Origin: a virus
Taxonomy: Duplodnaviria > Caudoviricetes
Strand: one strand, 5' to 3'
Length of the DNA stretch: 64,000 nucleotides
IMG/VR virus record: IMGVR_UViG_3300010965_000001
Location: 32,001-96,000 of that record
Shown here piece after piece: positions 10,507 to 27,513 of this stretch. The notes under the pieces are model-generated. The model worked only from the letters and a program-made list of their open reading frames with translations. It was not told the DNA's origin and made no database searches. The translations under genes and the position numbers were made by a program. The first letter of the stretch is position 1, and every line of letters starts with the position of its first letter.

Positions 10507-11479
10507 TCAACGCCTCATTAATTTTCTTTAAGAATTCTTCTTCTGCGAACTTAGTGTAATTGTATTTTGCTTCTTCACAACACATCTTGAAGAACTCGGG
10601 ATTACGTTGTAACGTCCACGCCAAATCCTTTGCCTTCTGAACATCATCGACATCCACAGAGAGATTTGGGTGACAGATACGTTGTGTGTCTACCTTCTCA
10701 TTACCTATACAGGGGATACCGAAGTATGCACAGTTGAGACTGAACGTACCTGCCGCAACCGTGGGCATCATGTGGACTGCATACTTGAAGGATGATAGGG
10801 TCTTCATCCAATCCAACCATTCAAGTCGTGGTAAATGTGTAAGTCCTTCTATGTCAAATTCCTCTTGTCTCGCCGCATGAGACGAAGGAACATAGATACG
10901 ATTCACAAACTCCTGTGCTACGATGTAACTCTGAAAGCCACCATACCACCTACAGAAGTTACCACCAATGATTGTTTTGTCTTCTGTGACAGGAACTATG
11001 TCCTTCACTAAGTCTTCAATCATAAGGGTCGGCATGACGTAAGTCTTCTTATCAAACAGACCTGAATAGAAATTCCTATCAGTCTCATTGTGAACGAAGA
11101 TTCCATCGGAACTTACGATTGCGTTATTGTAATGGAACTGATTGATTATCTCATACTCATTGAAGAACCACGATGGACCTTCTTGTACGAAGAAGACCTT
11201 CTTGTTATGTTGTTTTAACTCTCCAACAAAGTCTTCTTGAAATAATGGAAGATACTTGTTAGGAACGTCCACCATCTTAGAACCAACTGCATTCAATGAC
11301 ACATCACCTTTGGGGAAGATGATGAATACAACATCAAAATCCTTGACACCATTGAAGTGTGTAATTGGATAGTGAACTGCATTGAGTGCCGCCATCCATG
11401 CAAACTCTGTTCTCATGTTAGTGTGATTCCTATAGACAGGACCACTAAATCCCATCTCTGTTAAGAATGCTATTTTCAT
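10499..11479 (-). CDS. putative GT-B glycosyltransferase
   Basis: AAGTFSLNCAYFGIPCIG resembles the GT-B nucleotide-sugar-binding segment; cluster context. Confidence 0.6.
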   Translation of the reverse strand: MKIAFLTEMGFSGPVYRNHTNMRTEFAWMAALNAVHYPITHFNGVKDFDVVFIIFPKGDVSLNAVGSKMVDVPNKYLPLFQEDFVGELKQHNKKVFFVQEGPSWFFNEYEIINQFHYNNAIVSSDGIFVHNETDRNFYSGLFDKKTYVMPTLMIEDLVKDIVPVTEDKTIIGGNFCRWYGGFQSYIVAQEFVNRIYVPSSHAARQEEFDIEGLTHLPRLEWLDWMKTLSSFKYAVHMMPTVAAGTFSLNCAYFGIPCIGNEKVDTQRICHPNLSVDVDDVQKAKDLAWTLQRNPEFFKMCCEEAKYNYTKFAEEEFLKKINEALNG

Positions 11480-12306
11480 TTATCCCTCAACTGATTGTAC
11501 ATTATTTTTAGTCCTTCACCTAATCCTATTAATGGAAGTGTTGGTAGTATGCTCGGGTGTGCCTCTCCGTAATATGACAACTCCACTCCGCCTCTGTCAA
11601 TCTTAATAGGACATCGATAATCACTCAACTGATTAATCACACCACAAATATCAGTCAATGTTATTTTATCCTTATAGACTGCATTCATTTCCTTTGATAG
11701 AAAGAATGGGTCGGAATGCATATAGTAACTTACGACAGTCATTAAATCATCAATGTAGAAGAAGTCCATGATTCTGTCCATATCAACAGTTAATGTGTCG
11801 TGGTTGATGTATCGTTGAATGTTTGTTTTGATGAACCGTGCAGTATCTTCATCGTGGGCAAACACATTGAACAATCTAATATTATAGAAATCATCAGTGT
11901 CTTCTATGATTCGTGCTATGAGATTTTTACTCATACCATATGGGTCAATTGGAAACGATGTAACAACTTTGTTACTAACATCTATGTTACGCCGCCGGTC
12001 CAACTCCGCCCCTGTTCCAAAATTGATAAACCGTTTGTAATATCGTCTATTGGTATAGAGATTGTTAAACATAGTAAGGTTATCTGCCAATACTTGATTA
12101 GTGTCTACCTTCGTACGTTTACCACCTGTTATAGCAGTGTGAAGAACCACATCAAATTTACCACTAATCTCAAAGAATTTATCGACATCAAATCCATTAG
12201 TCCAATCCAATTGGGAATGTGTCGGTGCGACCATTTCATGCTCACCGAAATATTCTTTAAGATGCCGTGCTATAAATCCATTACCGCCTGTTATGAGTAT
12301 TTTCAT
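11476..12306 (-). CDS. NAD-dependent epimerase/dehydratase
   Basis: MKILITGGNGFIA, VLHTA, YGMSK (YxxxK), IRLFNVF. Confidence 0.9.
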   Translation of the reverse strand: MKILITGGNGFIARHLKEYFGEHEMVAPTHSQLDWTNGFDVDKFFEISGKFDVVLHTAITGGKRTKVDTNQVLADNLTMFNNLYTNRRYYKRFINFGTGAELDRRRNIDVSNKVVTSFPIDPYGMSKNLIARIIEDTDDFYNIRLFNVFAHDEDTARFIKTNIQRYINHDTLTVDMDRIMDFFYIDDLMTVVSYYMHSDPFFLSKEMNAVYKDKITLTDICGVINQLSDYRCPIKIDRGGVELSYYGEAHPSILPTLPLIGLGEGLKIMYNQLRDK

Positions 12307-12307
12307 A

Positions 12308-13060
12308 TTATCTCTTTCTAAAGACTGCCAAGTAATTGATTTCATTGGGGTCTAATATCAAATCAACTAATTCAAATGCTTCACTGACTTTCTTATTCAT
12401 ATCGTCATTTAAGAAACTTGAATTAAACTTTCCAGTAAAATGTGTCTGTATTAATTCCTCTCCAACCAATGAGTTGTCATATCTGTACTTACCACGGGAT
12501 TTGAATGGATTTTGAATATCTTCCATGAAATAATATCCACCACTCTTCACTAAATCGATGGACTGATATAACGTAACCATCATGTGATTCGGCCAGTGGC
12601 TTCCATCTTCTACTATGAAATCTAAGTCATGTGGTACACATTCTTTTATGCCCACCCAATCTGAGAATGAACCTTGGTCTGCGTAAATGAAATTCACACC
12701 CATTTGATTTAAGAACTCTACATCACCCATCTTATCATCAAGTGTGTTATTCCAAAAGTTGTCTACGGAATATAAATCTAAATCTGAGAAGAATCCTGTC
12801 CACATCTTGCAACTTGCATAGGGAAATCTGTTATCACATATACCAATCTCCATCATCTTAACAGGTGCATCCTTGTATTGATTCATATAACGTGCATACG
12901 TAGTGGTGTATTCCAAACAGGTATGTGTAGGATATTTCACTCCCCAAGAAGTGAGTGCCGCGGGAAATGTCCCCTTGTCGGATTCGTGTGCATTAGCCAA
13001 GTATGTCAAATCTCTCACACCAGCAAGAACGTTGGATTTAGTCTTTTGAAAAAATTTCAT
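12308..13060 (-). CDS. SAM-dependent O-methyltransferase-like protein
   Basis: MMEIGI, DQG, FIVEDGSH, LVKSGGYYFMEDI. Confidence 0.75.
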   Translation of the reverse strand: MKFFQKTKSNVLAGVRDLTYLANAHESDKGTFPAALTSWGVKYPTHTCLEYTTTYARYMNQYKDAPVKMMEIGICDNRFPYASCKMWTGFFSDLDLYSVDNFWNNTLDDKMGDVEFLNQMGVNFIYADQGSFSDWVGIKECVPHDLDFIVEDGSHWPNHMMVTLYQSIDLVKSGGYYFMEDIQNPFKSRGKYRYDNSLVGEELIQTHFTGKFNSSFLNDDMNKKVSEAFELVDLILDPNEINYLAVFRKR

Positions 13061-13061
13061 G

Positions 13062-14012
13062 TTATTTCCCTTTTAAATATTTGTTAATTAGTTTTTTCAT
13101 TCCAAGATGTGTACTCTCATACTCATCGTTTAATGTAATTGTTTCTATACCAGTTACGTGTGTAATGTATTCTTTTATAACAGGTAGTTTCTTACTGATT
13201 CCACCAGTCAAAAATATGTGTTCGAATATATCTGTATCAATTCTTCGAATGTATTGTGTAACGTATCCTTTTACAACTGATGCAATCATATTATCTACAG
13301 TAAAGTTGTCTTCGTGTATATTCTTAATGAACCCGCCACCGTTATACTCAACAGCCTGTTCAAATACATTCAAGTCAATTTCCAATGTAGAAGTTATAAG
13401 GTCGTTCACTGTCAACTTACTACACCTTTCAAAGAAATCTACACCCATCGATTGAAAGAATGAACTGAACATATTCAATGCTCTTCCGCTTGGAATGTAA
13501 CTTGTGATATTGTCAGTTGATATTACTTGTGAACCCGTTCCCATGTTAATTAACAAGTCCGTCTCCTCTAAGTCAACTGATTCTATAACACAATTGGTAT
13601 CACCCAATACACTATAGAACTTCACACCGTTGATATAACCAAGAACTTCCAACCCATCTACAATTGAATCTTTTGAATGATGTTTATGTATGTGATATGT
13701 CTCCTGCCCCCTAAAGAGTTCAGAGATTAAGCAACCTTTATAATTTGGATTTTGATACAGTGCCTTCCATGAATAATAAATATCATTCTCTGAGTAGGAA
13801 CCGCCTAAGATTGAACATATCACAACATTTTTTATGCGTGTATATTGTGCCAATACATGTAATAATGACCCAATCACATATCGTTTGGCAACAGAGTATT
13901 CCATGTGCAATGGAGATTGAAAACTCTTATAATTTGTTAAACTATCTGTATCGGAATCATACACTATACACTTAATGTATGATGCACCGTAATCAATTAG
14001 CAAGTATTGCAT
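13062..14012 (-). CDS. FGGY-family carbohydrate kinase (sedoheptulokinase/xylulokinase-like)
   Basis: IDYGASYIK phosphate-1 motif, LGDTNC, INMGTGSQ, FLTGGI. Confidence 0.7.
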   Translation of the reverse strand: MQYLLIDYGASYIKCIVYDSDTDSLTNYKSFQSPLHMEYSVAKRYVIGSLLHVLAQYTRIKNVVICSILGGSYSENDIYYSWKALYQNPNYKGCLISELFRGQETYHIHKHHSKDSIVDGLEVLGYINGVKFYSVLGDTNCVIESVDLEETDLLINMGTGSQVISTDNITSYIPSGRALNMFSSFFQSMGVDFFERCSKLTVNDLITSTLEIDLNVFEQAVEYNGGGFIKNIHEDNFTVDNMIASVVKGYVTQYIRRIDTDIFEHIFLTGGISKKLPVIKEYITHVTGIETITLNDEYESTHLGMKKLINKYLKGK

Positions 14013-15015
14013 TGAGTCTCTCCACTAAGATGTCATCGAGTTTGGTTGGGAAAAAGTTCGTTACTCCTTCGTAACAGTTTACTAATTGTATTACATCACC
14101 AGCAACCTTCTTGTCACTTTTCAAATTGGACACAATCCCTACTGTGCTTAACTGTTTTATTTTACACAATGATGTAAACTTTAAACATGCTTCATTGATT
14201 ACTTCGTTGTTATCAAATAACTTATTGACAAGGAGGATTCCAAGTAATACAGCCTCACCATGTGGTATCTTATACTTTGTCATTGATTCAATCACGTGCC
14301 CAAACGAATGACCGTAATTCAGGGACTTTCTCAAATCTTCTTCGAATTCATCCTTCTCAATTACCAATCGTTTGATTTCAAGTGAATGTCTAATCACATC
14401 TTCAATTCCCCAATTACTGATGTTATTCAAGTAATAATTACCACCGATGGTAAACAACTTAACAATCTCACCATAACCTGACACCATATCTTCTGCTGTC
14501 AAAGTTTTAAGAAACTCTATATCGACTGTAACTTTACTTGGTGCGGAGAACAATGCCAATTGATTCTTATGATTGTCGAAGTTCAATCCAGACTTACCAC
14601 CAATACAACTGTCACACATCGACAATAGAGTGGTAGGATAGAACTCCCAATTAATTCCACGCTTGAACATTTTGGCTACGAATGCACCAATGTCTTGTGT
14701 TATGCCACCACCAATTACTATAAGTCTATTACTCTTAGTGAAACCCCACTCGGACAATTGTCCACACACCATTAGACATGTGTCCATTGACTTATTCTTC
14801 TCTAATGCTTTAATCTCAACAATCTTATCACATGATACATTGTAAAGATTCCCAACAGTTTGGTCTACTAATACAACACAATCGTCACCAAATGTTAAGT
14901 CCGCTCTACCAATCACAACATCGTAATTCTTTGGAAATGACTTAACAGTGAACTGTTTTTCAAGTTTTTGATTTATACGAAATATCGTGTCTTCAATCTT
15001 AAATAAATTGTGCAT
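13993..15015 (-). CDS. 3-dehydroquinate-synthase-like sugar-phosphate cyclase
   Basis: GGGITQDIG, PTTLLSMCDSCIGGK, GEIVK, LNYGHSFGH, HGEAV. Confidence 0.88.
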   Translation of the reverse strand: MHNLFKIEDTIFRINQKLEKQFTVKSFPKNYDVVIGRADLTFGDDCVVLVDQTVGNLYNVSCDKIVEIKALEKNKSMDTCLMVCGQLSEWGFTKSNRLIVIGGGITQDIGAFVAKMFKRGINWEFYPTTLLSMCDSCIGGKSGLNFDNHKNQLALFSAPSKVTVDIEFLKTLTAEDMVSGYGEIVKLFTIGGNYYLNNISNWGIEDVIRHSLEIKRLVIEKDEFEEDLRKSLNYGHSFGHVIESMTKYKIPHGEAVLLGILLVNKLFDNNEVINEACLKFTSLCKIKQLSTVGIVSNLKSDKKVAGDVIQLVNCYEGVTNFFPTKLDDILVERLNAILAN

Positions 15016-15018
15016 GTC

Positions 15019-16752
15019 TTACTCCTTTGAAATGGTCATATCAGTTAATGTTCCAGGAATGATTTTACCATTTGCATCAATTCCTCTGTGAGTTACTTTT
15101 GGTTCGTGCTTTTCTGATGGGTTCACGAACACTTCGATTATACATGGTTTGTAGGATGTCATACTCTGCGACAATACACCGTCTACGTCGGCATTACTTT
15201 TAATACTGTAATAATCAATCCCAAACGCCTTTGCAATTTTTTCAAAACTTGGGAGTGAGACACCATTATCCTTGCCGCTTGCAAATTCAGCCCCACCGAA
15301 GAACGCACCCTGTGTAAGTTTAATGGACACATATCCATCGTTATTGACAATGATGATTTTGATTGGAAGGTTGTTATGTTTGATAGTTTGCAATTCCTGT
15401 AAGTTCATCATTATACTTCCATCACCTTCGATACATACTACTCTCATGTTGGATGCTTTACACGCGCCGATTGCTGCGGAGATACCGTATCCCATACTCG
15501 CACACCCCACATTGGTGTACAGTCGTTGACCTTTGTTTATGTTATATGTTTGTTGTGTCACTACATGTGCTGACCCATTACTTGTTACAATGGGAAGTTT
15601 ACCAAAATACTTTGGTGCTCTACTTATGAAATAATAGAAACTTGCAAATTGTTTTGGATGAATGTGTTGTGGATAACAATAAACCTGTTCCTTACGTTTA
15701 TCCTTGACATATTGTTGCCACTCACCAATTTGCAATGTTTCATTATCCATAGTAATATATGATAAGAACTCTTTCAAATCTGATGGGATTTTCAAATCTA
15801 TATGAAATTTATGTTTCATAATTTCAAATTCATCAATATCAACAATTATCTTCTTAGCGTTTGGTGCGAAGTCCTTTATATTATATCCAGTCATTTTGAA
15901 GTTTAACCGTGACCCTAAGATGATTAACAAATCACACTGTTGAACTATTTCGTTTGAAGTTAGTTGTCCATGAATTCCAATACGTCCTGCATAATATTCA
16001 TACGTATTGTCAATACAATCCACCGCAGAGTGTGGTCCAGTTACTGCGGGGATGCCTGTCTTCACTAACAAGTCGTTAAGTAAAGTGTAACTGTTTGACA
16101 GTCTCACTCCACTACCACACACTATTAACGGTTTCTTTGCATTGAGAAGTAATTTCTTAAATTTAACAATTTCACTTGGAAATGGTTTCATCACTCTAAT
16201 TACTTCCGTGAATCTATCTAACATCTCTTCATCTACATCTGCTCCTTGAATATCCAATGGAACGTCTATCCATACTGGACCCATTCTATCATGTAGTGCG
16301 ATTTGATACGCCTTCTCAAGTTCGTACAATATTCTACTCTTGTCTTTTATTGTCACACAATACTTTGTCATTGGAGCCGCCACCTTCACAATATTGAACT
16401 CTTGGTCACCGATTTGACGGCAACCAGTTCCTTCTGACAGTTGATTAGTGGACACCTGTCCAGAAATGACCATCGATGGGATACTATCTAACCACATCCC
16501 CAATAGACCTGTTAATGCGTTAGTGCCTCCAGGACCAGTTGTGATTACGTTGAGTGCCATCTTACCACTCTGACGGTAATACCCTTCAGATGCCATCAAT
16601 GCAGTTTGTTCGTGGTGAACACATGTCGTGTCCATCCCCTTTGCAAGTCGTAACGCGTCTATGAGATGAATACATCCACCACCTGAAACTGTGAATGCAT
16701 GGTCGATTTTCTTCTCTAAGAAAAACTTCATTATTAAGTCTGCTACTCTCAT
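15019..16752 (-). CDS. thiamine-diphosphate-dependent enzyme (acetolactate-synthase-like, YerE-like)
   Basis: HHEQTA, TTGPGGTNA, GDGS...NN TPP-binding motif. Confidence 0.92.
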   Translation of the reverse strand: MRVADLIMKFFLEKKIDHAFTVSGGGCIHLIDALRLAKGMDTTCVHHEQTALMASEGYYRQSGKMALNVITTGPGGTNALTGLLGMWLDSIPSMVISGQVSTNQLSEGTGCRQIGDQEFNIVKVAAPMTKYCVTIKDKSRILYELEKAYQIALHDRMGPVWIDVPLDIQGADVDEEMLDRFTEVIRVMKPFPSEIVKFKKLLLNAKKPLIVCGSGVRLSNSYTLLNDLLVKTGIPAVTGPHSAVDCIDNTYEYYAGRIGIHGQLTSNEIVQQCDLLIILGSRLNFKMTGYNIKDFAPNAKKIIVDIDEFEIMKHKFHIDLKIPSDLKEFLSYITMDNETLQIGEWQQYVKDKRKEQVYCYPQHIHPKQFASFYYFISRAPKYFGKLPIVTSNGSAHVVTQQTYNINKGQRLYTNVGCASMGYGISAAIGACKASNMRVVCIEGDGSIMMNLQELQTIKHNNLPIKIIIVNNDGYVSIKLTQGAFFGGAEFASGKDNGVSLPSFEKIAKAFGIDYYSIKSNADVDGVLSQSMTSYKPCIIEVFVNPSEKHEPKVTHRGIDANGKIIPGTLTDMTISKE

Positions 16753-17793: not shown

Positions 17794-18102
17794 TTATTTC
17801 CAATCCCGCGTATTCATATTTTTATCATCGATGAATAAATCAAAATATGGTTTGTCAAATTTGAGTTCGTGATACTTGACTCCCCAATTACTTAATTGTT
17901 TCTTTGTTAGGTCAGACCAGTCAATTCCAGTCTTCTGTCCTCTTGCCGTCCAATATACAATGTGATGTCCTTTGTCATACAACTTATTAGCCTTTACTAT
18001 ATTCTCATTTATTGGACTACTAATTGTATAATCAGGTGCGTTTGGACTGTGACAAATTGTTTCATCAATATCAATGTATATTGTTTTTAATGTGCTGAGC
18101 AT
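17794..18102 (-). CDS. small HAD-superfamily phosphatase (capsule-cluster type)
   Basis: DIDETIC (DxD), YWTARG, KPYFDLFIDDK. Confidence 0.85.
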   Translation of the reverse strand: MLSTLKTIYIDIDETICHSPNAPDYTISSPINENIVKANKLYDKGHHIVYWTARGQKTGIDWSDLTKKQLSNWGVKYHELKFDKPYFDLFIDDKNMNTRDWK

Positions 18103-18731
18103 GAATAACCTCCATCGATGATGAAGTTTTGTCCATTGATGAAGTCGTTATTATCACATAAGAAGAATACCATATCCGCCACTTCACTTGGTTGCCCCAA
18201 TCTACCAACGGGAATTTTGCCGATGAGTTCTTCAAGTTGTTCGTCAGTGTTATTCTTATACGTCATATCCGTGTTTATAAATCCAGGTGATACCGTGTTG
18301 CATAGAATATTGTGTTTACCATACTCTACAGCGATAGATTTTGTAAGTGCATGAAGTGCATTCTTACTCGCACTATATGCAAATCGATTTTGTTTTGCAA
18401 AGTCAATCCATACACTACCCATATTCACTATTCTACCATATTGGTTTAGCATCATATGATTTAAACATTGTTTAATTATTTGTGTGGGTGCATAGAAATT
18501 GACATCCATAGTTCTCTGTAAATCAAATCCTGTTGTCGCCATATCATTAAGTATGTTTACACCTGCGTTATTAACAATCACATCGAAATTCGTGTTTGTT
18601 AACTGTGGGATAACTGACAAGTTAAGTTCGTCACGGTTAGGAGCGTACACCTCATAACCGTTGGACGAAAACTTCTCTACAATCGCTTCACCGATACCTC
18701 TTGAACCACCTGTAACTAATACTTTTTTCAT
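18087..18731 (-). CDS. short-chain dehydrogenase/reductase
   Basis: TGGSRGIG, NNAG, YSASK, SPGFINT, IDGG. Confidence 0.92.
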   Translation of the reverse strand: MKKVLVTGGSRGIGEAIVEKFSSNGYEVYAPNRDELNLSVIPQLTNTNFDVIVNNAGVNILNDMATTGFDLQRTMDVNFYAPTQIIKQCLNHMMLNQYGRIVNMGSVWIDFAKQNRFAYSASKNALHALTKSIAVEYGKHNILCNTVSPGFINTDMTYKNNTDEQLEELIGKIPVGRLGQPSEVADMVFFLCDNNDFINGQNFIIDGGYSCSAH

Positions 18732-19531
18732 TAATCCACCTTAATAGATTGGTTGATTCGTTCCTGTATCATGTGAATTCGTTTCAAATCTGCATCTGCA
18801 AATCCCATATAATGTTCACGTTTAACCATGAGCCATTCATACTCAAACATCTGTCCTTTTGCCAGTGCGGCTGGTAGATTCTTGAGTGCTACAGCTGGGT
18901 CATACATGACATAACGTGTTTCGAACTTGTCGAGTAATCGTTTTGAATGGAGACGGGACAAGAACGAATATGATTCCGTTGATACAGCGCCTCCAACACA
19001 CGCCTTTAATCCCTTTTCTTTTGCAAGAGTAAATACCTTCTCAGCCATATCAAATACAAATGGACTCTCAACAAAATTTCTATCTTCACCCAACGAAGAA
19101 ACAAGGTCAACTCTTCCCAACGTGATTCCATACAGTGAAAATATGTCATCAATTTCCATTATGTCTGCGATATTTTTAACAGCAGTCATAGTTTCAATAT
19201 TCACCAATAATTGAAGTGATGATACTGAATCTGGTGAAATATATTTCTTAACGGCACCAATGAACTTCTGAACCCCAAATGGAGATTCAACCATCGGTGC
19301 TACCAACCCCTTCACACCGATAATTGCGGAGTCTTGAATATCTCTGATTGCTTCAGGACCACCAATCTTCAACGTTATCTTCGTCTTTGCTTCGTTACAA
19401 ATCTGTTTAAGACGAACCACTTCGTTGAAGGTTGCACCTTCATCTTCGAAACTTGTCTTGATACCAACCATTCCATGATTTTCAACCAAGTCAGTCAGTA
19501 ACTCTACACATCTAAATTCTCTTTTGTTCAT
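18731..19531 (-). CDS. HpcH/HpaI aldolase / citrate-lyase family protein
   Basis: KIGG.EA, APMVES, NIET, GRVDL.SLG. Confidence 0.82.
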   Translation of the reverse strand: MNKREFRCVELLTDLVENHGMVGIKTSFEDEGATFNEVVRLKQICNEAKTKITLKIGGPEAIRDIQDSAIIGVKGLVAPMVESPFGVQKFIGAVKKYISPDSVSSLQLLVNIETMTAVKNIADIMEIDDIFSLYGITLGRVDLVSSLGEDRNFVESPFVFDMAEKVFTLAKEKGLKACVGGAVSTESYSFLSRLHSKRLLDKFETRYVMYDPAVALKNLPAALAKGQMFEYEWLMVKREHYMGFADADLKRIHMIQERINQSIKVD

Positions 19532-20098: not shown

Positions 20099-21052
20099 TT
20101 ACCACACAAATGTGTCTTTGTTATATTCTGTGATGTTCCACAACTCTTCGTCAAACTTAACTTTCGGACTCCATCCAAGTGCTCTCAACTTAGAATCATC
20201 GAGTGCATATCGAACGTCTTGCCCTGCCCTAACAACACCAAAGTTAACGTACGGTTCCCATTGGTCAGTTCCCTTCACAAGTTTTATAATCTTCGTAACT
20301 GTCTCCAGATTCGATTGTTCAAATCCTCCACAAATGTTATATATTTCATTCACAACACCCTTTTCTACAATCAACAAAACTGCATCTGCAGTATCTTGTG
20401 CATGTAACCAATTACGAACAGGTTTACCCATATTGTGAAGTGGAATCGGTTTATCCAACATCAAGTATTTACAAGCCTTTGGAATCAACTTTTCCACATA
20501 CTGCCCACACCCATAATTGTTTGTGGGACGAACTATCACGTACGGAATGCCATACGTTCTCGCATACGCGGTAATTAACATATCACCAGCGGCTTTGGTT
20601 GCAGAGTATGGATTGGATGGGTGGAGAATATCCAATTCCGTGTGTGCTCCAACTGCAATATCACCATACACTTCATCGGTACTGAAATGTAACAGAGTGG
20701 GAACCTTACCACTTTCTTGACGATAATTACGAATCAATTCTAACAGATGATGAACTCCACCAATATTTGAGTGGACAAAATCATCACTGTTGGTGATTGA
20801 ATTTCCTACATGTGTTTCAGCGGCACAGTTAATAACATAGTCACATTCATATAAGAATTTAAGGTCATTAATGTCCTCTTTCATAAATGAGAAATTTGGA
20901 TATTTACTCATAAACGATTTAATTAATTTTATATCGGCTGCGTAGGTACACTTGTCAACACCCATCACATACCAACCTTCATTGAGTAATGTCTCTGTTA
21001 CATATGAACCTATGAATCCAAGACATCCTGTTACGTATACTATTTTTTTCAT
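20099..21052 (-). CDS. rfbB: dTDP-glucose 4,6-dehydratase
   Basis: TGCLGFIGS, AAETHV, STDEVYG, PSNPYSATKA, RAGQDVRY. Confidence 0.9.
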   Translation of the reverse strand: MKKIVYVTGCLGFIGSYVTETLLNEGWYVMGVDKCTYAADIKLIKSFMSKYPNFSFMKEDINDLKFLYECDYVINCAAETHVGNSITNSDDFVHSNIGGVHHLLELIRNYRQESGKVPTLLHFSTDEVYGDIAVGAHTELDILHPSNPYSATKAAGDMLITAYARTYGIPYVIVRPTNNYGCGQYVEKLIPKACKYLMLDKPIPLHNMGKPVRNWLHAQDTADAVLLIVEKGVVNEIYNICGGFEQSNLETVTKIIKLVKGTDQWEPYVNFGVVRAGQDVRYALDDSKLRALGWSPKVKFDEELWNITEYNKDTFVW

Positions 21053-25202: not shown

Positions 25203-26573
25203 TTAGTATGCCTTTACAAAATAATCTCGCATGAATCGTTCCACAACAACTTCAATGTAATCCAACTGTTCATCCGTAATTCCAGGATATACCCCGAGGA
25301 AGAATGAATCCAACGTTGACTTAGTTGCCACTGGAAATTCTCTTCTTGGATTTACATACTTGCTAGCTTGGTCAACGTACGCTGGATGAAGTAGTGCATT
25401 CCCCGTAAAGTACGAACGTGTCTGAACTTTCTTATGTTCGAACCACGACATCAGTTGGTCTTTTGTAAATGGTGATTCATCCTTAATCGTAAGAAGGAAT
25501 CCAAACCACGACACATCCGCCCCAAACTCCGCCAGTGGCATGTGGAGATACTTCCGATATGGATAGAATATTTCACACAACCTCGCGTGGTTCTTCTTTC
25601 TCTTCGCGTGCATTTCATCCAACTTGTCAATTTGTTCCAATCCAATTGCAGTCTGCATTTCAATTGGTTTTAAGTTATATCCGATTTCATCAAACACATA
25701 ACGATGGTCAAATGTTATATCGTCATGTCCCTTGAACCAACACTTAAACCGATTGCCACATGCAGTCCCATCGATGACATCACCAGGTTTGTTTGTATTA
25801 CAATGACATGCCCTACCCCAATCACGGAGACTTGACACGACTATCCGTTCCTTCATCGTGTTCACTCCAACGAACCCACCTTCACCCATTGTCATGTGAT
25901 GTGCTGGGAAGAATGAACAACTTGAAAGATGTCCAAATGACCCCAACACCTGCCCCTTGTACGTAGAACCAAGTGCATCACATGCATCTTCTAAGAATAT
26001 CAAATTGTATTCTTTGACAATTCTCATAACTCTATCCATGTCAGGAGGATTTCCTAAAACGTGTGCGAATATGATTCCTTTGATTTCTTTGGCAGTATCT
26101 AACTTCAAAACTGCTTCCACTTGGTCTAAGTCTAAATTCAAACTTGGAAGTGTGACATCTACGAAGACAGGTTCGAACCCATTCTGAATGATTGGATTGA
26201 GTGTTGTAGGGAAGCATAATACAGGTGTGATGAACTTCGAACCAACTGGAAGGTTATACAACCGTTTCGACTTCATTGCGGCGAGCATTAACAAATTTGC
26301 AGATGAACCTGAATTGACTACTACACCATCCTTCTTTCCAAGTTTCGGTGCGAACTTCGTTTCAAACTTACGTGCGGTCTCTCCCAAAATCAACCACTCC
26401 GATAGGAGAGATGTGATTGCGGCAGTGTATTCCTTCTCATTGAAGAACGGACCAGAATAATGAATCCAATCTTTACCAGCAACCCACTTCTTTGCCTTCT
26501 TTGTTTTGATATACGAACTTACAACTTTTAAAATGATTTTATGTTTCAACTTCTGAATTGTGTCATTAAACAT
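25203..26573 (-). CDS. rfbH: NDP-4-keto-6-deoxyhexose 3-dehydratase (RfbH/DdhC, E1 type)
   Basis: NSGSSANL, EDACDALG, SFFPAHH (His in place of the PLP lysine), RDWGRACHC...C Fe-S cysteines; start 26573 overlaps fcl stop. Confidence 0.88.
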   Translation of the reverse strand: MFNDTIQKLKHKIILKVVSSYIKTKKAKKWVAGKDWIHYSGPFFNEKEYTAAITSLLSEWLILGETARKFETKFAPKLGKKDGVVVNSGSSANLLMLAAMKSKRLYNLPVGSKFITPVLCFPTTLNPIIQNGFEPVFVDVTLPSLNLDLDQVEAVLKLDTAKEIKGIIFAHVLGNPPDMDRVMRIVKEYNLIFLEDACDALGSTYKGQVLGSFGHLSSCSFFPAHHMTMGEGGFVGVNTMKERIVVSSLRDWGRACHCNTNKPGDVIDGTACGNRFKCWFKGHDDITFDHRYVFDEIGYNLKPIEMQTAIGLEQIDKLDEMHAKRKKNHARLCEIFYPYRKYLHMPLAEFGADVSWFGFLLTIKDESPFTKDQLMSWFEHKKVQTRSYFTGNALLHPAYVDQASKYVNPRREFPVATKSTLDSFFLGVYPGITDEQLDYIEVVVERFMRDYFVKAY

Positions 26574-27513
26574 TTTTATCTCCACGATATAGGATATTAT
26601 AAACTTTTTGGATTCCGTTAACAAAGTGCGTGAATTCAAAATTTGGAATAAGATTTACCATTTTATTAATACTTACATCTTTACGGTATTGACCGTCGGG
26701 ATATGTACTGTCATACCAAATATCCCAATCTTCATGCCCCAATGCCAATAGTGTCATTCGTGCTAATTCATCTATACTGAAATTTTGACCGACAGGGGCG
26801 ACATTGAAACTTTCAGTAATATCGTACTCAACCATATCTCCCAACACTCTCGCCAAGTCTCCAGCATACATAAATTGACGTAACGGCTTTCCAGTCCCCA
26901 TTAATTTAATAGTCTTATCTCCATACTCCTCAGCGCGCTGAATCTTTGATAGAAGTGCCGTCACAAAATGTGGTTTGTTAGCATTACGTCCGTAAATTAC
27001 GTCATACTCACTATAGAGATTGGAAGGTATTACGTAATTGTAGTTAGTTTTGTACTGTTGATTGTATGCGTCTATTTGAACTGCCATACATCGTTTCGCA
27101 TATCCATAACTGAAATTGGTTTCTGCTGGTGGTCCGAGATGTAAATCCGTTTCCACCATTGGATACTTGTCCATTACATCAGGATAGATGCATGTACTCA
27201 GTATACCAGTGAATCGTTCAACATTATATTTATGTGCGTACTTTACCATCAAAGTATTCATTAAAATATTTTGGTCGAAGAAGTCGGCTGGGTGCATCAT
27301 ATTATCCATGATACCACCAACTTTCCCCGCGGCGTGTATAATTCGTTGTGGACGATTTGCAGAAATCATATATTCGACATGGACAGGGTTTGTCAAGTCA
27401 AATTCTTCACCGAAATTGTCTTTGGTGACAAAAACGGCAGATGGGAACTGCTCGCGGAGATGTTTTCCCACCATGCCGTTCCCACCTGTTATTAGTAATT
27501 CGTTATCAAACAT
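26566..27513 (-). CDS. fcl: GDP-L-fucose-synthase-like epimerase/reductase
   Basis: TGGNGMVG, AGKVGGI, STCIYP, YGYAKR, PSNLY, GTGKPLRQF, PDGQYRK. Confidence 0.88.
   Translation of the reverse strand: MFDNELLITGGNGMVGKHLREQFPSAVFVTKDNFGEEFDLTNPVHVEYMISANRPQRIIHAAGKVGGIMDNMMHPADFFDQNILMNTLMVKYAHKYNVERFTGILSTCIYPDVMDKYPMVETDLHLGPPAETNFSYGYAKRCMAVQIDAYNQQYKTNYNYVIPSNLYSEYDVIYGRNANKPHFVTALLSKIQRAEEYGDKTIKLMGTGKPLRQFMYAGDLARVLGDMVEYDITESFNVAPVGQNFSIDELARMTLLALGHEDWDIWYDSTYPDGQYRKDVSINKMVNLIPNFEFTHFVNGIQKVYNILYRGDKNV

What the first reader, a model, noticed from the sequence alone, without database searches (positions are those of the whole stretch)
13062..15015. Orphan DHQ-synthase-like cyclase coupled to a sedoheptulokinase-like kinase
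Seen: the cyclase keeps the NAD-binding GGG motif and the metal ligands (GEIVK, GHSFGH, HGEAV), and its stop overlaps the FGGY kinase start. No other shikimate gene is in the window. It has the DHQS/EVS-like LNYGH motif rather than the MLEEL/DFGH motifs of EEVS/DDGS. Inference: the kinase makes the ketose-phosphate substrate, or phosphorylates the cyclitol product, giving a valiolone-like branch independent of aromatic amino-acid synthesis.
Basis: partly seen in the sequence, partly recalled or inferred. Interest (0 to 1): 0.66.

Follow-up and report, generated by a model that had tools for sequence, protein, structure and literature searches.

The report
Phage branched-sugar side-chain enzyme pair
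The dehydroquinate-synthase look-alike and its overlapping small sugar kinase are two steps of a gene cassette, shared by bacteria, phages and giant viruses, that most likely builds the long side chain of a branched surface sugar, and they have nothing to do with aromatic amino acids or valiolone-type cyclitols.

Summary
Both genes are real and lie on the minus strand of a complete 210-kb T4-like phage genome. The genome has no other shikimate gene.

- **Cyclase** (13993-15015): it keeps every AroB catalytic residue but scores below the aroB cut-off.
- **Kinase** (13062-14012): it is a shortened FGGY-fold kinase.
- **Not an orphan pair:** in 114 related loci the cyclase sits beside a YerE-like ThDP enzyme (91), a FabG-like reductase directly upstream (81 of 110) and this kinase directly downstream (67 of 107). 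A keto-acid-forming enzyme (NeuB-like, HpcH or HMGL-like) and an NDP-hexose 4,6-dehydratase are usually nearby.
- **Pathway:** this matches the published YerE-type acyl-branched sugar scheme (erwiniose, caryophyllose).

My best reading, which is inferred, runs as follows. NeuB-like makes a 3-deoxy-2-ulosonate. The kinase phosphorylates its end. The DHQS-like enzyme removes that phosphate by oxidation, elimination and reduction. A reductase then finishes a terminal-methyl keto acid, which the ThDP enzyme joins to the NDP-keto-sugar. True ring formation is not excluded.

Earlier notes of this scan describe the same cassette in bacterial genomes. This is a phage copy, so I class it as a new variant of a known kind.

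The parts
13993..15015 (-). DHQS-like enzyme (340 aa, P0001); proposed phosphate-eliminating step on a 3-deoxy-2-ulosonate phosphate
   Evidence: Pfam DHQ_synthase + DHQS_C. TIGR04425 scores 268.9 (cut-off 400) and aroB TIGR01357 scores 211.4 (cut-off 305). All AroB catalytic residues are conserved. It sits in a 24-member, mostly viral clade.
13062..14012 (-). Shortened FGGY-fold sugar kinase (316 aa, P0002); start overlaps the cyclase stop by 20 nt
   Evidence: AF2 pLDDT 94. Foldseek top hits are FGGY kinases. Orthologues hit FGGY_N. D7, G9, K14, D138, G158-T159-G160 and G270-G271 are invariant.
15019..16752 (-). YerE-like ThDP carboligase (577 aa)
   Evidence: TPP_enzyme N/M/C domains. Nearest solved structure is JanthE 8rph at 349 bits, against AHAS at 264 bits. 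JanthE is described as a YerE-like enzyme (PMC12188165).
16749..17792 (-). NeuB-like PEP-dependent 3-deoxy-2-ulosonate synthase (347 aa)
   Evidence: Pfam NeuB 8.9e-40. PseI and NeuB equivalogs score far below cut-off. Nearest structure is 3g8r at 189 bits. Present in 52 of 114 related loci.
17794..18102 (-). Small HAD-phosphatase-like ORF (102 aa); role unclear
   Evidence: Weak TIGR01689 match, E 1.9e-4. 67-77% identical copies lie upstream of NeuB-like in 9 viral loci.
18087..18731 (-). FabG-like SDR (214 aa); candidate reductase of the ketone left by the DHQS-like step
   Evidence: adh_short_C2 4.5e-43. A homologue lies directly upstream of the DHQS-like gene in 81 of 110 loci. In this window it is displaced and sits beside the HpcH gene.
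18731..19531 (-). HpcH/HpaI-type pyruvate aldolase (266 aa); a second possible keto-acid maker
   Evidence: Pfam HpcH_HpaI 5.2e-12. In 9 loci this gene directly follows the DHQS-like gene in place of the kinase.
11476..12345 (-). RmlD/Fcl-like extended SDR (289 aa); candidate YerF-like reductase of the branch carbonyl
   Evidence: Pfam Epimerase 3.3e-20. Weak matches to dTDP-4-dehydrorhamnose reductases. Follows the kinase in the viral loci.
12308..13060 (-). TylF/MycE-like sugar O-methyltransferase candidate (250 aa, P0003)
   Evidence: No Pfam hit. PDB 8ia9 demethylmacrocin O-methyltransferase 1.6e-9 and 3ssm 2.2e-6.
20099..21052 (-). NDP-hexose 4,6-dehydratase (317 aa); makes the 4-keto-6-deoxy sugar
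   Evidence: GDP_Man_Dehyd 7.1e-55. dTDP-glucose 4,6-dehydratase model scores 291.8 against a cut-off of 365. 58-71% identical copies in the viral loci.
25203..26639 (-). RfbH-type NDP-4-keto-6-deoxyhexose 3-dehydrase
   Evidence: DegT family 1.2e-72. NCBIfam RfbH scores 436.6, above its cut-off of 423.
26566..27513 (-). Fcl-like epimerase/reductase (315 aa)
   Evidence: Epimerase 3.5e-41. GDP-L-fucose synthase model scores 173.9, below its cut-off.

Best explanation
The two genes are consecutive, translationally coupled steps in the side-chain branch of a YerE-type acyl-branched deoxysugar pathway, carried in a roughly 22-kb glycan island of a T4-like phage. Proposed order: (1) the NeuB-like enzyme (or the HpcH aldolase) condenses PEP or pyruvate with a short aldose to give a 3-deoxy-2-ulosonic acid, which is a 4-hydroxy-2-oxo acid. 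(2) The shortened FGGY kinase phosphorylates its terminal hydroxyl, giving a DAHP-like compound. (3) The DHQS-like enzyme uses bound NAD+ and a metal to oxidise, beta-eliminate the phosphate and re-reduce, as AroB does, but the useful product is the open-chain omega-deoxy methyl ketone and not a carbocycle. (4) The FabG-like SDR reduces that ketone, leaving a terminal-methyl polyhydroxy 2-keto acid (for a C7 acid, a 3,7-dideoxyheptulosonate, the donor that a caryophyllose-type hexyl branch needs). (5) The YerE-like ThDP enzyme decarboxylates it and adds it to C4 of the NDP-4-keto-3,6-dideoxyhexose made by the 4,6-dehydratase and RfbH. (6) The RmlD-like reductase reduces the branch carbonyl, and the neighbouring glycosyltransferases and methyltransferases use the product. 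Shown: gene identities, fold, residue conservation, and gene order conserved across phyla and viruses. Inferred: every substrate, the order of steps, and above all that step 3 ends without ring closure.
For: Pathway assignment:
- The ThDP enzyme is nearest to the YerE-like JanthE (349 bits against 264 for AHAS).
- RfbH scores above its curated cut-off, and an NDP-hexose 4,6-dehydratase is present.
- Of 114 related loci, 91 hold the ThDP enzyme. 81 of 110 have the FabG-like SDR directly upstream of the DHQS-like gene, and 67 of 107 have the kinase directly downstream.
- Three unrelated 4-hydroxy-2-oxoacid-forming enzymes take turns beside it: NeuB-like, HpcH, and HMGL/BphI-like. The shared intermediate is therefore a 2-keto acid, as in the published scheme in which aldolase-made keto acids feed ErwE, MMAR_2332 and MyGE (PMC9306805).
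- The acceptor-sugar genes differ by lineage but are always nearby: CDP-type in Elusimicrobium and Coxiellaceae, dTDP-like in the phage, and GMD in a giant-virus contig.

Substrate of the DHQS-like enzyme:
- All AroB phosphate-, carboxylate- and metal-binding residues are 100% conserved in 112 cassette homologues. It should therefore act on the free phospho-keto-acid, before decarboxylation.

No ring:
- The ThDP enzyme needs a 2-keto acid, and ring closure would destroy that group.
- The cassette has two reductases for the two ketones that this route creates.
- The caryophyllose branch is D-altro-1,3,4,5-tetrahydroxyhexyl with a terminal methyl (PMC5706390), which is what DAHP minus its phosphate would give.
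- HpcH-type loci have no kinase, consistent with an aldehyde that is already phosphorylated.

Not AroB:
- It scores below the aroB cut-off.
- 4 of 5 host genomes have a separate canonical aroB.
- The phage genome has no other aro genes.
Against: - Nothing in the sequence separates this enzyme mechanistically from a cyclising DHQS. Every catalytic residue is kept. From my own knowledge of the AroB literature, the enol intermediate released by AroB cyclises on its own, so an open-chain product needs a feature that I could not identify.
- The window also holds a HAD-like ORF and an HpcH aldolase that the scheme does not need.
- The FabG-like SDR is not adjacent to the DHQS-like gene in this window, unlike in the other phage loci.
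- 31 of 107 loci have neither the kinase nor HpcH directly downstream.
- One close relative (L036) has the NeuB, SDR, DHQS-like and kinase genes but no ThDP gene within 10 kb.
- No nucleotidyltransferase and no E3-type reductase is found in the phage genome.
- No product structure is known for any organism that carries the kinase-type cassette.
- The 2024 survey of YerE-like clusters (Angew. Chem. e202403535) could not be read, so I do not know whether it already covers these genes.
Confidence: 0.55

Rival explanations
1. The DHQS-like enzyme really closes a ring. Either it acts after the ThDP coupling on a phosphorylated side chain, giving a cyclohexyl-branched sugar, or it makes a dehydroquinate-like cyclohexanone that serves as the ketone acceptor of the YerE-like enzyme or as a separate carbocyclic acid substituent.
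For: All residues for the complete AroB reaction are conserved, and AroB is the nearest family with solved structures. YerE-like enzymes accept cyclic ketones (PMC12247030). From my own knowledge, the AroB enol intermediate cyclises spontaneously. Carbocyclic sugars (caryose, bradyrhizose) exist in bacterial glycans and I found no published enzymology for them.
Against: Ring closure before coupling removes the 2-keto acid that the ThDP enzyme needs, and no activating enzyme for a free carbocyclic acid was identified among the cassette genes whose family could be assigned. Ring closure after coupling gives a substrate with no carboxylate, yet the carboxylate-binding Arg and Lys are invariant. 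It would also leave only one ketone for two conserved reductases. The known products of this pathway type have open chains (PMC9306805, PMC5706390).
Confidence: 0.2
2. The DHQS-like enzyme acts earlier, on a small phosphorylated aldose or ketose (for example a tetrose 4-phosphate made by the kinase). It produces a terminal-deoxy aldehyde, which the NeuB-like enzyme or aldolase then extends.
For: The published caryophyllose scheme needs a deoxy aldehyde of unknown origin as the aldolase substrate (PMC9306805). From my own knowledge, FGGY kinases typically act on small ketoses and polyols; the fold match to such kinases is.
Against: The DAHP-type carboxylate- and C2-binding residues are invariant, which argues for a 2-ulosonate substrate. 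HpcH-type loci have no kinase.
Confidence: 0.1
3. One reading: a sedoheptulose-7-phosphate-type cyclase plus kinase giving a valiolone-like C7 cyclitol. From my own knowledge, AcbC/AcbM and ValA/ValC are such cyclase-kinase pairs.
For: Cyclase-kinase pairing, and the absence of shikimate genes.
Against: The sequence is closer to DHQS than to EEVS, DDGS or DOIS. The DAHP carboxylate-binding residues are kept. The conserved partners are ThDP, SDR, a keto-acid synthase and NDP-keto-sugar genes, and none of the conserved partners whose family could be assigned is an aminocyclitol or pseudo-oligosaccharide enzyme.
Confidence: 0.03
4. An ordinary aroB carried by the phage as an auxiliary metabolic gene to boost host aromatic amino-acid synthesis.
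For: The full AroB active site is present.
Against: It scores below the aroB equivalog cut-off (211 against 305). It forms a group apart from four canonical AroB sequences. Host genomes keep a separate aroB. It is operonic with glycan genes in 114 loci.
Confidence: 0.03

Closest known systems
YerE-type acyl-branched sugar pathways: yersiniose A (YerE/YerF), erwiniose (ErwE/F/I/J), caryophyllose (MMAR_2331/2332), gastriose (Steitz et al. 2022, PMC9306805; review PMC12247030)
   Same: A ThDP carboligase related to YerE/JanthE, an aldolase-type maker of a 4-hydroxy-2-oxo acid, reductases, genes for an NDP-4-keto-3,6-dideoxyhexose, glycosyltransferases and a sugar methyltransferase, all in one cluster.
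   Different: The published descriptions that I could read name only an aldolase, a ThDP enzyme, a reductase and the deoxysugar genes. Here a NeuB-like synthase, an FGGY kinase, a DHQS-like enzyme and a second small SDR are added. The carrier is a phage, and the 4,6-dehydratase is dTDP-like, not CDP-type.
AroB, 3-dehydroquinate synthase (e.g. PDB 3clh, 1dqs)
   Same: Same fold and domains, the NAD-binding GGG motif, the metal ligands, and all phosphate- and carboxylate-binding residues. The first three chemical steps (oxidation, phosphate elimination, reduction) are probably the same.
   Different: About 30-35% identity and a score below the equivalog cut-off. There is a separate paralogous clade, no shikimate context, and family-specific substitutions (C137, Q152, F168, L212, F224, Y234, P251, N264). 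The fate of the enol intermediate probably differs.
Sugar-phosphate cyclase plus kinase pairs of aminocyclitol pathways (AcbC/AcbM, ValA/ValC; recalled from my own knowledge, not tested here)
   Same: A DHQS-superfamily enzyme encoded next to an ASKHA-fold kinase.
   Different: Those cyclases are of the EEVS type and act on sedoheptulose 7-phosphate, and their kinases phosphorylate the cyclitol product. This enzyme is DHQS-type, and the kinase more likely acts before it.
NCBIfam TIGR04425, 'AroB-related putative sugar phosphate phospholyase (cyclizing)'
   Same: It is the best-scoring NCBIfam model for both the phage protein and the bacterial cassette proteins.
   Different: Scores of 269 and 307 lie below the cut-off of 400. 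The model is a hypothetical equivalog with no tested function, and I found no paper that mentions it.
JanthE of Janthinobacterium sp. HH01 (PDB 8rph/8rpi/8rpj)
   Same: It is the closest solved relative of the neighbouring ThDP enzyme (349 bits). It accepts long and hydroxylated 2-keto acids and ketone acceptors (PMC12188165).
   Different: The physiological substrates of JanthE are unknown, and I could not inspect its gene neighbourhood.

Membership tests
3-dehydroquinate synthase (AroB) as a functional equivalog | Score above the curated equivalog cut-off (TIGR01357, 305 bits) | tested here: not met
   211.4 bits. Bacterial cassette copies score 248-268 bits, while the canonical aroB of the same genomes scores 364-400.
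3-dehydroquinate synthase (AroB) as a functional equivalog | NAD-binding GGG motif, metal ligands E/H/H, and the phosphate- and carboxylate-binding Lys/Asn/Arg residues | tested here: met
   G102-G104, D135, K141, N151, E183, K186, K215, R229, N233, H236, H240, H252 and K303 are invariant and identical in four canonical AroB sequences.
3-dehydroquinate synthase (AroB) as a functional equivalog | Other shikimate-pathway genes present in the genome | tested here: not met
   No DAHP synthase, dehydroquinase I or II, or EPSP synthase in the 210-kb genome.
3-dehydroquinate synthase (AroB) as a functional equivalog | Conversion of DAHP to 3-dehydroquinate | not testable with these tools
   Needs an enzyme assay or aroB complementation.
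DHQS superfamily (fold level) | Pfam DHQ_synthase and DHQS_C domains | tested here: met
   104.5 and 80.5 bits, both above the gathering scores.
Sedoheptulose-7-phosphate cyclases (EEVS/EVS/DDGS) | Closer to EEVS/DDGS than to DHQS | tested here: not met
   DHQS structures score 1e-34 to 1e-27. ValA scores 5.5e-22 and DDGS 5.8e-16.
NCBIfam TIGR04425 (AroB-related putative phospholyase) | Score above the cut-off of 400 bits | tested here: not met
   268.9 bits.
FGGY carbohydrate kinases | Pfam FGGY_N / FGGY_C match | tested here: inconclusive
   The phage protein has no hit. 15 of 31 aligned orthologues hit FGGY_N, best 1.8e-18, and the Elusimicrobium orthologue scores 45.4 bits against a cut-off of 28.8.
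FGGY carbohydrate kinases | Two-domain ASKHA fold of the FGGY type | tested here: met
   Model pLDDT 94. The top Foldseek hits are glycerol, xylulose and fuculose kinases and LsrK, with TMq 0.62-0.74.
FGGY carbohydrate kinases | Phosphate-1 motif DxGxxxxK, catalytic Asp, phosphate-2 motif GTGS, adenosine motif GG | tested here: met
   D7, G9, K14, D138, G158-T159-G160 and G270-G271 are invariant in 31 sequences. Assigning these residues to the named motifs rests on my own knowledge of the fold.
FGGY carbohydrate kinases | Usual length of about 480-500 residues with a complete domain I | tested here: not met
   316 aa. About 100 residues between positions 83 and 125 are missing relative to the 426-aa orthologue.
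YerE-type acyl-branched sugar gene cluster | ThDP carboligase of the YerE-like subclass | tested here: met
   Nearest solved structure is JanthE 8rph at 349 bits; AHAS scores 264 bits; all ALS equivalogs score far below their cut-offs.
YerE-type acyl-branched sugar gene cluster | Genes for the NDP-4-keto-3,6-dideoxyhexose acceptor | tested here: inconclusive
   RfbH scores 436.6, above its cut-off of 423, and a 4,6-dehydratase is present. No nucleotidyltransferase or E3-type reductase is found in the phage genome, so host enzymes would be needed.
YerE-type acyl-branched sugar gene cluster | Enzyme that makes a 4-hydroxy-2-oxo acid donor | tested here: met
   An HpcH aldolase and a NeuB-like synthase are in the window. 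HpcH, NeuB-like or HMGL-like genes are present in the related loci.
YerE-type acyl-branched sugar gene cluster | YerF-like reductase of the branch carbonyl | tested here: inconclusive
   An RmlD/Fcl-like SDR follows the kinase. Its similarity to YerF itself was not tested because no YerF sequence was at hand.
YerE-type acyl-branched sugar gene cluster | Branched sugar found in the glycan | not testable with these tools
   The host and the glycan are unknown.

The most novel reading that the evidence does not exclude
The DHQS-like enzyme does close a ring. These phages, giant viruses and bacteria would then make a surface sugar that carries a carbocyclic (cyclohexyl or quinate-like) branch. This would be the first enzyme route to a carbocycle in glycan biosynthesis, and it would be virus-encoded.
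Probability: 0.2. Interest if true: 0.8.

Novelty: new variant of a known kind. Interest (0 to 1): 0.55.

Why it matters
- **A new job for a well-known enzyme family.** If the reading is right, a copy of a textbook shikimate enzyme has been recruited, together with a shortened kinase, to turn a terminal CH2OH into CH3 on a keto acid. That would explain where the terminal methyl of caryophyllose-type branches comes from, which the papers I could read leave open.
- **Spread across viruses.** The same module occurs in many bacterial phyla, in at least 34 viral contigs and in giant-virus contigs. Viruses therefore carry the means to put a very unusual sugar on a host or virion surface, with likely effects on receptor masking and phage host range.
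- **Biocatalysis.** The enzymes would give access to functionalised chiral 2-keto acids for ThDP carboligations.

Tried and rejected
- A single-sequence scan of viral contigs found nothing; the alignment-based scan did.
- GenBank phages have no relative of the cyclase or the ThDP gene closer than about 36% identity. All hits there look like bacterial aroB or ilvB in contaminated or prophage records.
- The plasmid collection gave no match.
- A literature search for TIGR04425 or 'sugar phosphate phospholyase' found nothing. Searches for DHQS together with YerE, caryose or bradyrhizose found nothing relevant.
- Krug et al. 2024 (Angew. Chem. e202403535), Alibaud 2014 and Sarkar 2011 are not held, and the supplement of Steitz 2022 is not held. 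I could therefore not verify the earlier AI notes' claim that the Mycobacterium marinum caryophyllose locus contains a DHQS-family gene, nor whether the 2024 survey already lists these genes.
- A search for fused cyclase-kinase proteins found only one longer relative, an inositol-monophosphatase-DHQS fusion.
- Genuine aroB and a valiolone-type cyclitol pathway were considered and rejected; the reasons are given under the rival explanations.
- No sequence feature was found that decides between ring closure and an open-chain product.
Full report
**What is there**

The window is bases 32001-96000 of a 210,562-bp virus record that CheckV rates as complete. It encodes a T4-type DNA polymerase, a UvsX-like recombinase, a DnaB-like helicase, ribonucleotide reductase, PhoH and an ATP-dependent ligase. 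Its polymerase is 45% identical to that of Microcystis phage Mel-JY01 and about 31-33% identical to those of cyanomyoviruses. Nearly all genes are on the minus strand.

The finding covers two minus-strand ORFs:
- 13993-15015, 340 aa, P0001
- 13062-14012, 316 aa, P0002

They overlap by 20 nt.

**The cyclase-like protein**

- Pfam finds both DHQS domains.
- NCBIfam gives TIGR04425 ('AroB-related putative sugar phosphate phospholyase') 269 bits against a cut-off of 400, and aroB 211 bits against a cut-off of 305.
- True DHQS structures are the nearest solved relatives (3clh, 1.2e-34). ValA, DOIS and DDGS are more distant.
- I aligned 112 cassette homologues with four canonical AroB sequences. Every residue that I recognise as catalytic or substrate-binding in AroB is invariant and identical in both groups: the GGG motif, D135, K141, N151, E183, K186, K215, R229, N233, H236, H240, H252 and K303.
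- A set of other positions is family-specific: C137, Q152, F168, L212, F224, Y234, P251 and N264.

The enzyme should therefore bind a DAHP-like 3-deoxy-2-ulosonate phosphate, carboxylate included. It is not an EEVS-type enzyme.

**The kinase**

- P0002 alone matches no Pfam or NCBIfam model.
- Its orthologues in bacteria are 397-457 aa and hit FGGY_N.
- P0002 aligns with their two ends and lacks about 100 residues of domain I.
- The nucleotide-binding motifs and the putative catalytic Asp are invariant.
- The AlphaFold model is confident (pLDDT 94). Its best structural matches are glycerol, xylulose and fuculose kinases and LsrK.

It is a shortened FGGY kinase. Nothing ties it specifically to sedoheptulokinase.

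**Not orphan**

The surrounding genes on the same strand are as follows.

Upstream of the pair:
- HpcH aldolase
- FabG-like SDR
- small HAD-like ORF
- NeuB-like synthase
- ALS-like ThDP enzyme

Downstream of the pair:
- TylF/MycE-like methyltransferase candidate
- RmlD-like SDR
- glycosyltransferases

Further upstream:
- NDP-hexose 4,6-dehydratase
- RfbH-type 3-dehydrase, above its equivalog cut-off
- Fcl-like enzyme
- GT2, GT10 and GT11 glycosyltransferases

Relatives of P0001 at 50-60% identity are numerous in metagenomes. I fetched 34 viral and 80 genomic loci and compared them with the window's proteins:

| Feature | Loci |
|---|---|
| ThDP enzyme present in the locus | 91 of 114 |
| FabG-like SDR directly upstream of the DHQS-like gene | 81 of 110 |
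| Kinase directly downstream, usually overlapping by 20, 4 or 1 nt | 67 of 107 |
| HpcH aldolase in the kinase's place | 9 of 107 |

The carriers include Elusimicrobium, Brachyspira, Lachnospiraceae, Selenomonadaceae, Coxiellaceae, Legionellaceae, Myxococcota and a methanogen-related archaeon.

- In Elusimicrobium and Coxiellaceae the cassette follows glucose-1-phosphate cytidylyltransferase, CDP-glucose 4,6-dehydratase and an RfbH-like 3-dehydrase. RfbH scores 693.5 in Elusimicrobium, above its cut-off of 423, and 317.7 in Coxiellaceae, below it.
- In Lachnospiraceae and Brachyspira, where no NeuB-like gene is found, an HMGL/BphI-like aldolase is present instead.
- In a giant-virus contig (Pox_A22-type resolvase, MutS) the DHQS-like, HpcH and ThDP genes lie next to GDP-mannose 4,6-dehydratase and an Fcl-like gene.

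**Which pathway**

The nearest solved relative of the ThDP enzyme is JanthE (349 bits, against 264 for AHAS). JanthE is a YerE-like carboligase (PMC12188165).

Steitz et al. (PMC9306805) showed that ErwE, MMAR_2332 and MyGE take hydroxylated 2-keto acids made by aldolases. These enzymes attach the acids to ketone acceptors, the physiological one being CDP-4-keto-3,6-dideoxyglucose. A reductase then finishes erwiniose, caryophyllose or gastriose.

The cassette found here has all of those parts. Three unrelated enzymes that all make 4-hydroxy-2-oxo acids alternate beside the same core, and that argues strongly that such an acid is the pathway intermediate.

**Role of the pair (inference)**

The DHQS-like enzyme keeps the carboxylate-binding residues, so it should act on the free acid before the ThDP step. 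The ThDP step needs an intact 2-keto acid, and ring closure would consume that group.

The cassette has two reductases. The route I propose creates exactly two ketones:
- one at the penultimate carbon, after phosphate elimination
- one at the branch carbonyl, after the ThDP coupling

The caryophyllose branch is a 1,3,4,5-tetrahydroxyhexyl chain with a terminal methyl (PMC5706390). This is what a DAHP-like acid would give once its phosphate is replaced by hydrogen.

I therefore favour this sequence: the kinase installs a leaving group, the DHQS-like enzyme removes it by the AroB oxidation-elimination-reduction steps, and the SDR reduces the resulting methyl ketone. HpcH-type loci have no kinase, which fits an aldehyde that is already phosphorylated.

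I give the pathway assignment about 0.8 and this particular mechanism about 0.5.

**What argues against it**

- No residue difference that I can interpret would stop ring closure. From my own knowledge, the AroB enol intermediate cyclises readily.
- The window's own cassette is rearranged. The SDR sits beside an extra HpcH gene and not next to the DHQS-like gene.
- The closest relative, L036, has no ThDP gene within 10 kb.
- The phage has no nucleotidyltransferase and no E3-type reductase.

A real carbocyclic product therefore stays open, at about 0.2.

**Not aroB**

- The phage genome has no DAHP synthase, dehydroquinase or EPSP synthase.
- In four of five cassette-bearing bacterial genomes a separate aroB scores 364-400 bits, while the cassette copy scores 248-258. 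The fifth genome, Elusimicrobium, has only the cassette copy, at 268 bits.
- In a maximum-likelihood tree the 112 cassette proteins separate from the four AroB sequences used as the outgroup.
- The window's protein falls in a 24-member clade with 99% SH-aLRT support. That clade is viral apart from two contigs binned into Bacteroidota MAGs, one of them nearly identical to a viral contig.
- Kinase-type and HpcH-type loci are interleaved in the tree, so the partner has changed several times.

**Earlier notes of this scan**

After I had reached the YerE-type reading and PMC9306805, I looked up earlier notes. Several follow-up notes describe the same cassette in bacterial genomes. They reach the same pathway assignment, and two also propose phosphate removal that leaves a methyl group.

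These are AI notes and I do not count them as evidence. Their claim about a DHQS-family gene in the M. marinum LOS locus could not be checked here.

**Verdict**

This is a phage-borne copy of a widespread, apparently undescribed extension of a known pathway type.

Noticed in passing
window 8693-30720 (minus strand): A roughly 22-kb glycan island in a T4-like phage. It holds at least four GT2-type glycosyltransferases, a GT2-GT10 fusion, a GT11 fucosyltransferase-like gene, a DUF3431 protein, two methyltransferase candidates, an Fcl-like gene and several ORFs with no family. Whether it targets host LPS or capsule or the virion is unknown.
   Followed up: partly
window 17794-18102: A 102-aa HAD-phosphatase-like ORF, too short for a normal HAD enzyme. 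It is conserved at 67-77% identity directly upstream of the NeuB-like gene in nine viral loci. Its role beside a kinase is unexplained.
   Followed up: partly
window 18087-19531: This phage lacks the SDR that sits between the ThDP and DHQS-like genes in the other viral loci. Instead it has an SDR paired with an HpcH aldolase, only 32-37% identical to the other phages' SDR. This looks like a hybrid of the kinase-type and aldolase-type cassettes.
   Followed up: partly
L036:8228-14000 (Cyclobacteriaceae MAG contig): The closest relative (60% identity) lies in an arrangement NeuB-like, SDR, DHQS-like, short kinase, SDR, NeuB-like, with no ThDP gene within 10 kb. This may be a route to a free terminal-deoxy ulosonic acid and not to a branched sugar.
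   Followed up: no
L029:9995-18473 and L030, L032, L034: Giant-virus contigs (Pox_A22-like resolvase, MutS, DUF5767; GVMAG names) carry DHQS-like, HpcH and ThDP genes next to GDP-mannose 4,6-dehydratase and an Fcl-like gene. This suggests a GDP-linked acceptor sugar.
   Followed up: partly
L037 versus L002: A contig binned into a Bacteroidetes MAG is nearly identical to an IMG/VR viral contig across the cassette. It is either a phage contig mis-binned into the MAG or a hint at a Bacteroidota host.
   Followed up: no
protein P0123 (617 aa): A fusion of an inositol-monophosphatase-family domain with a DHQS-like domain (36% identity to P0001). It was the only longer relative found.
   Followed up: no
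L043:15243-15977 (Brachyspira intermedia): A CMP-ulosonate-synthetase-type cytidylyltransferase (CTP_transf_3) lies directly after the cassette's glycosyltransferase. This raises the possibility that some keto acid of the pathway is also CMP-activated.
   Followed up: no
window 25203-26639: The listed RfbH-like ORF starts at a TTG and overlaps the upstream Fcl-like gene by 74 nt. The ATG at 26573 is the more likely start.
   Followed up: no
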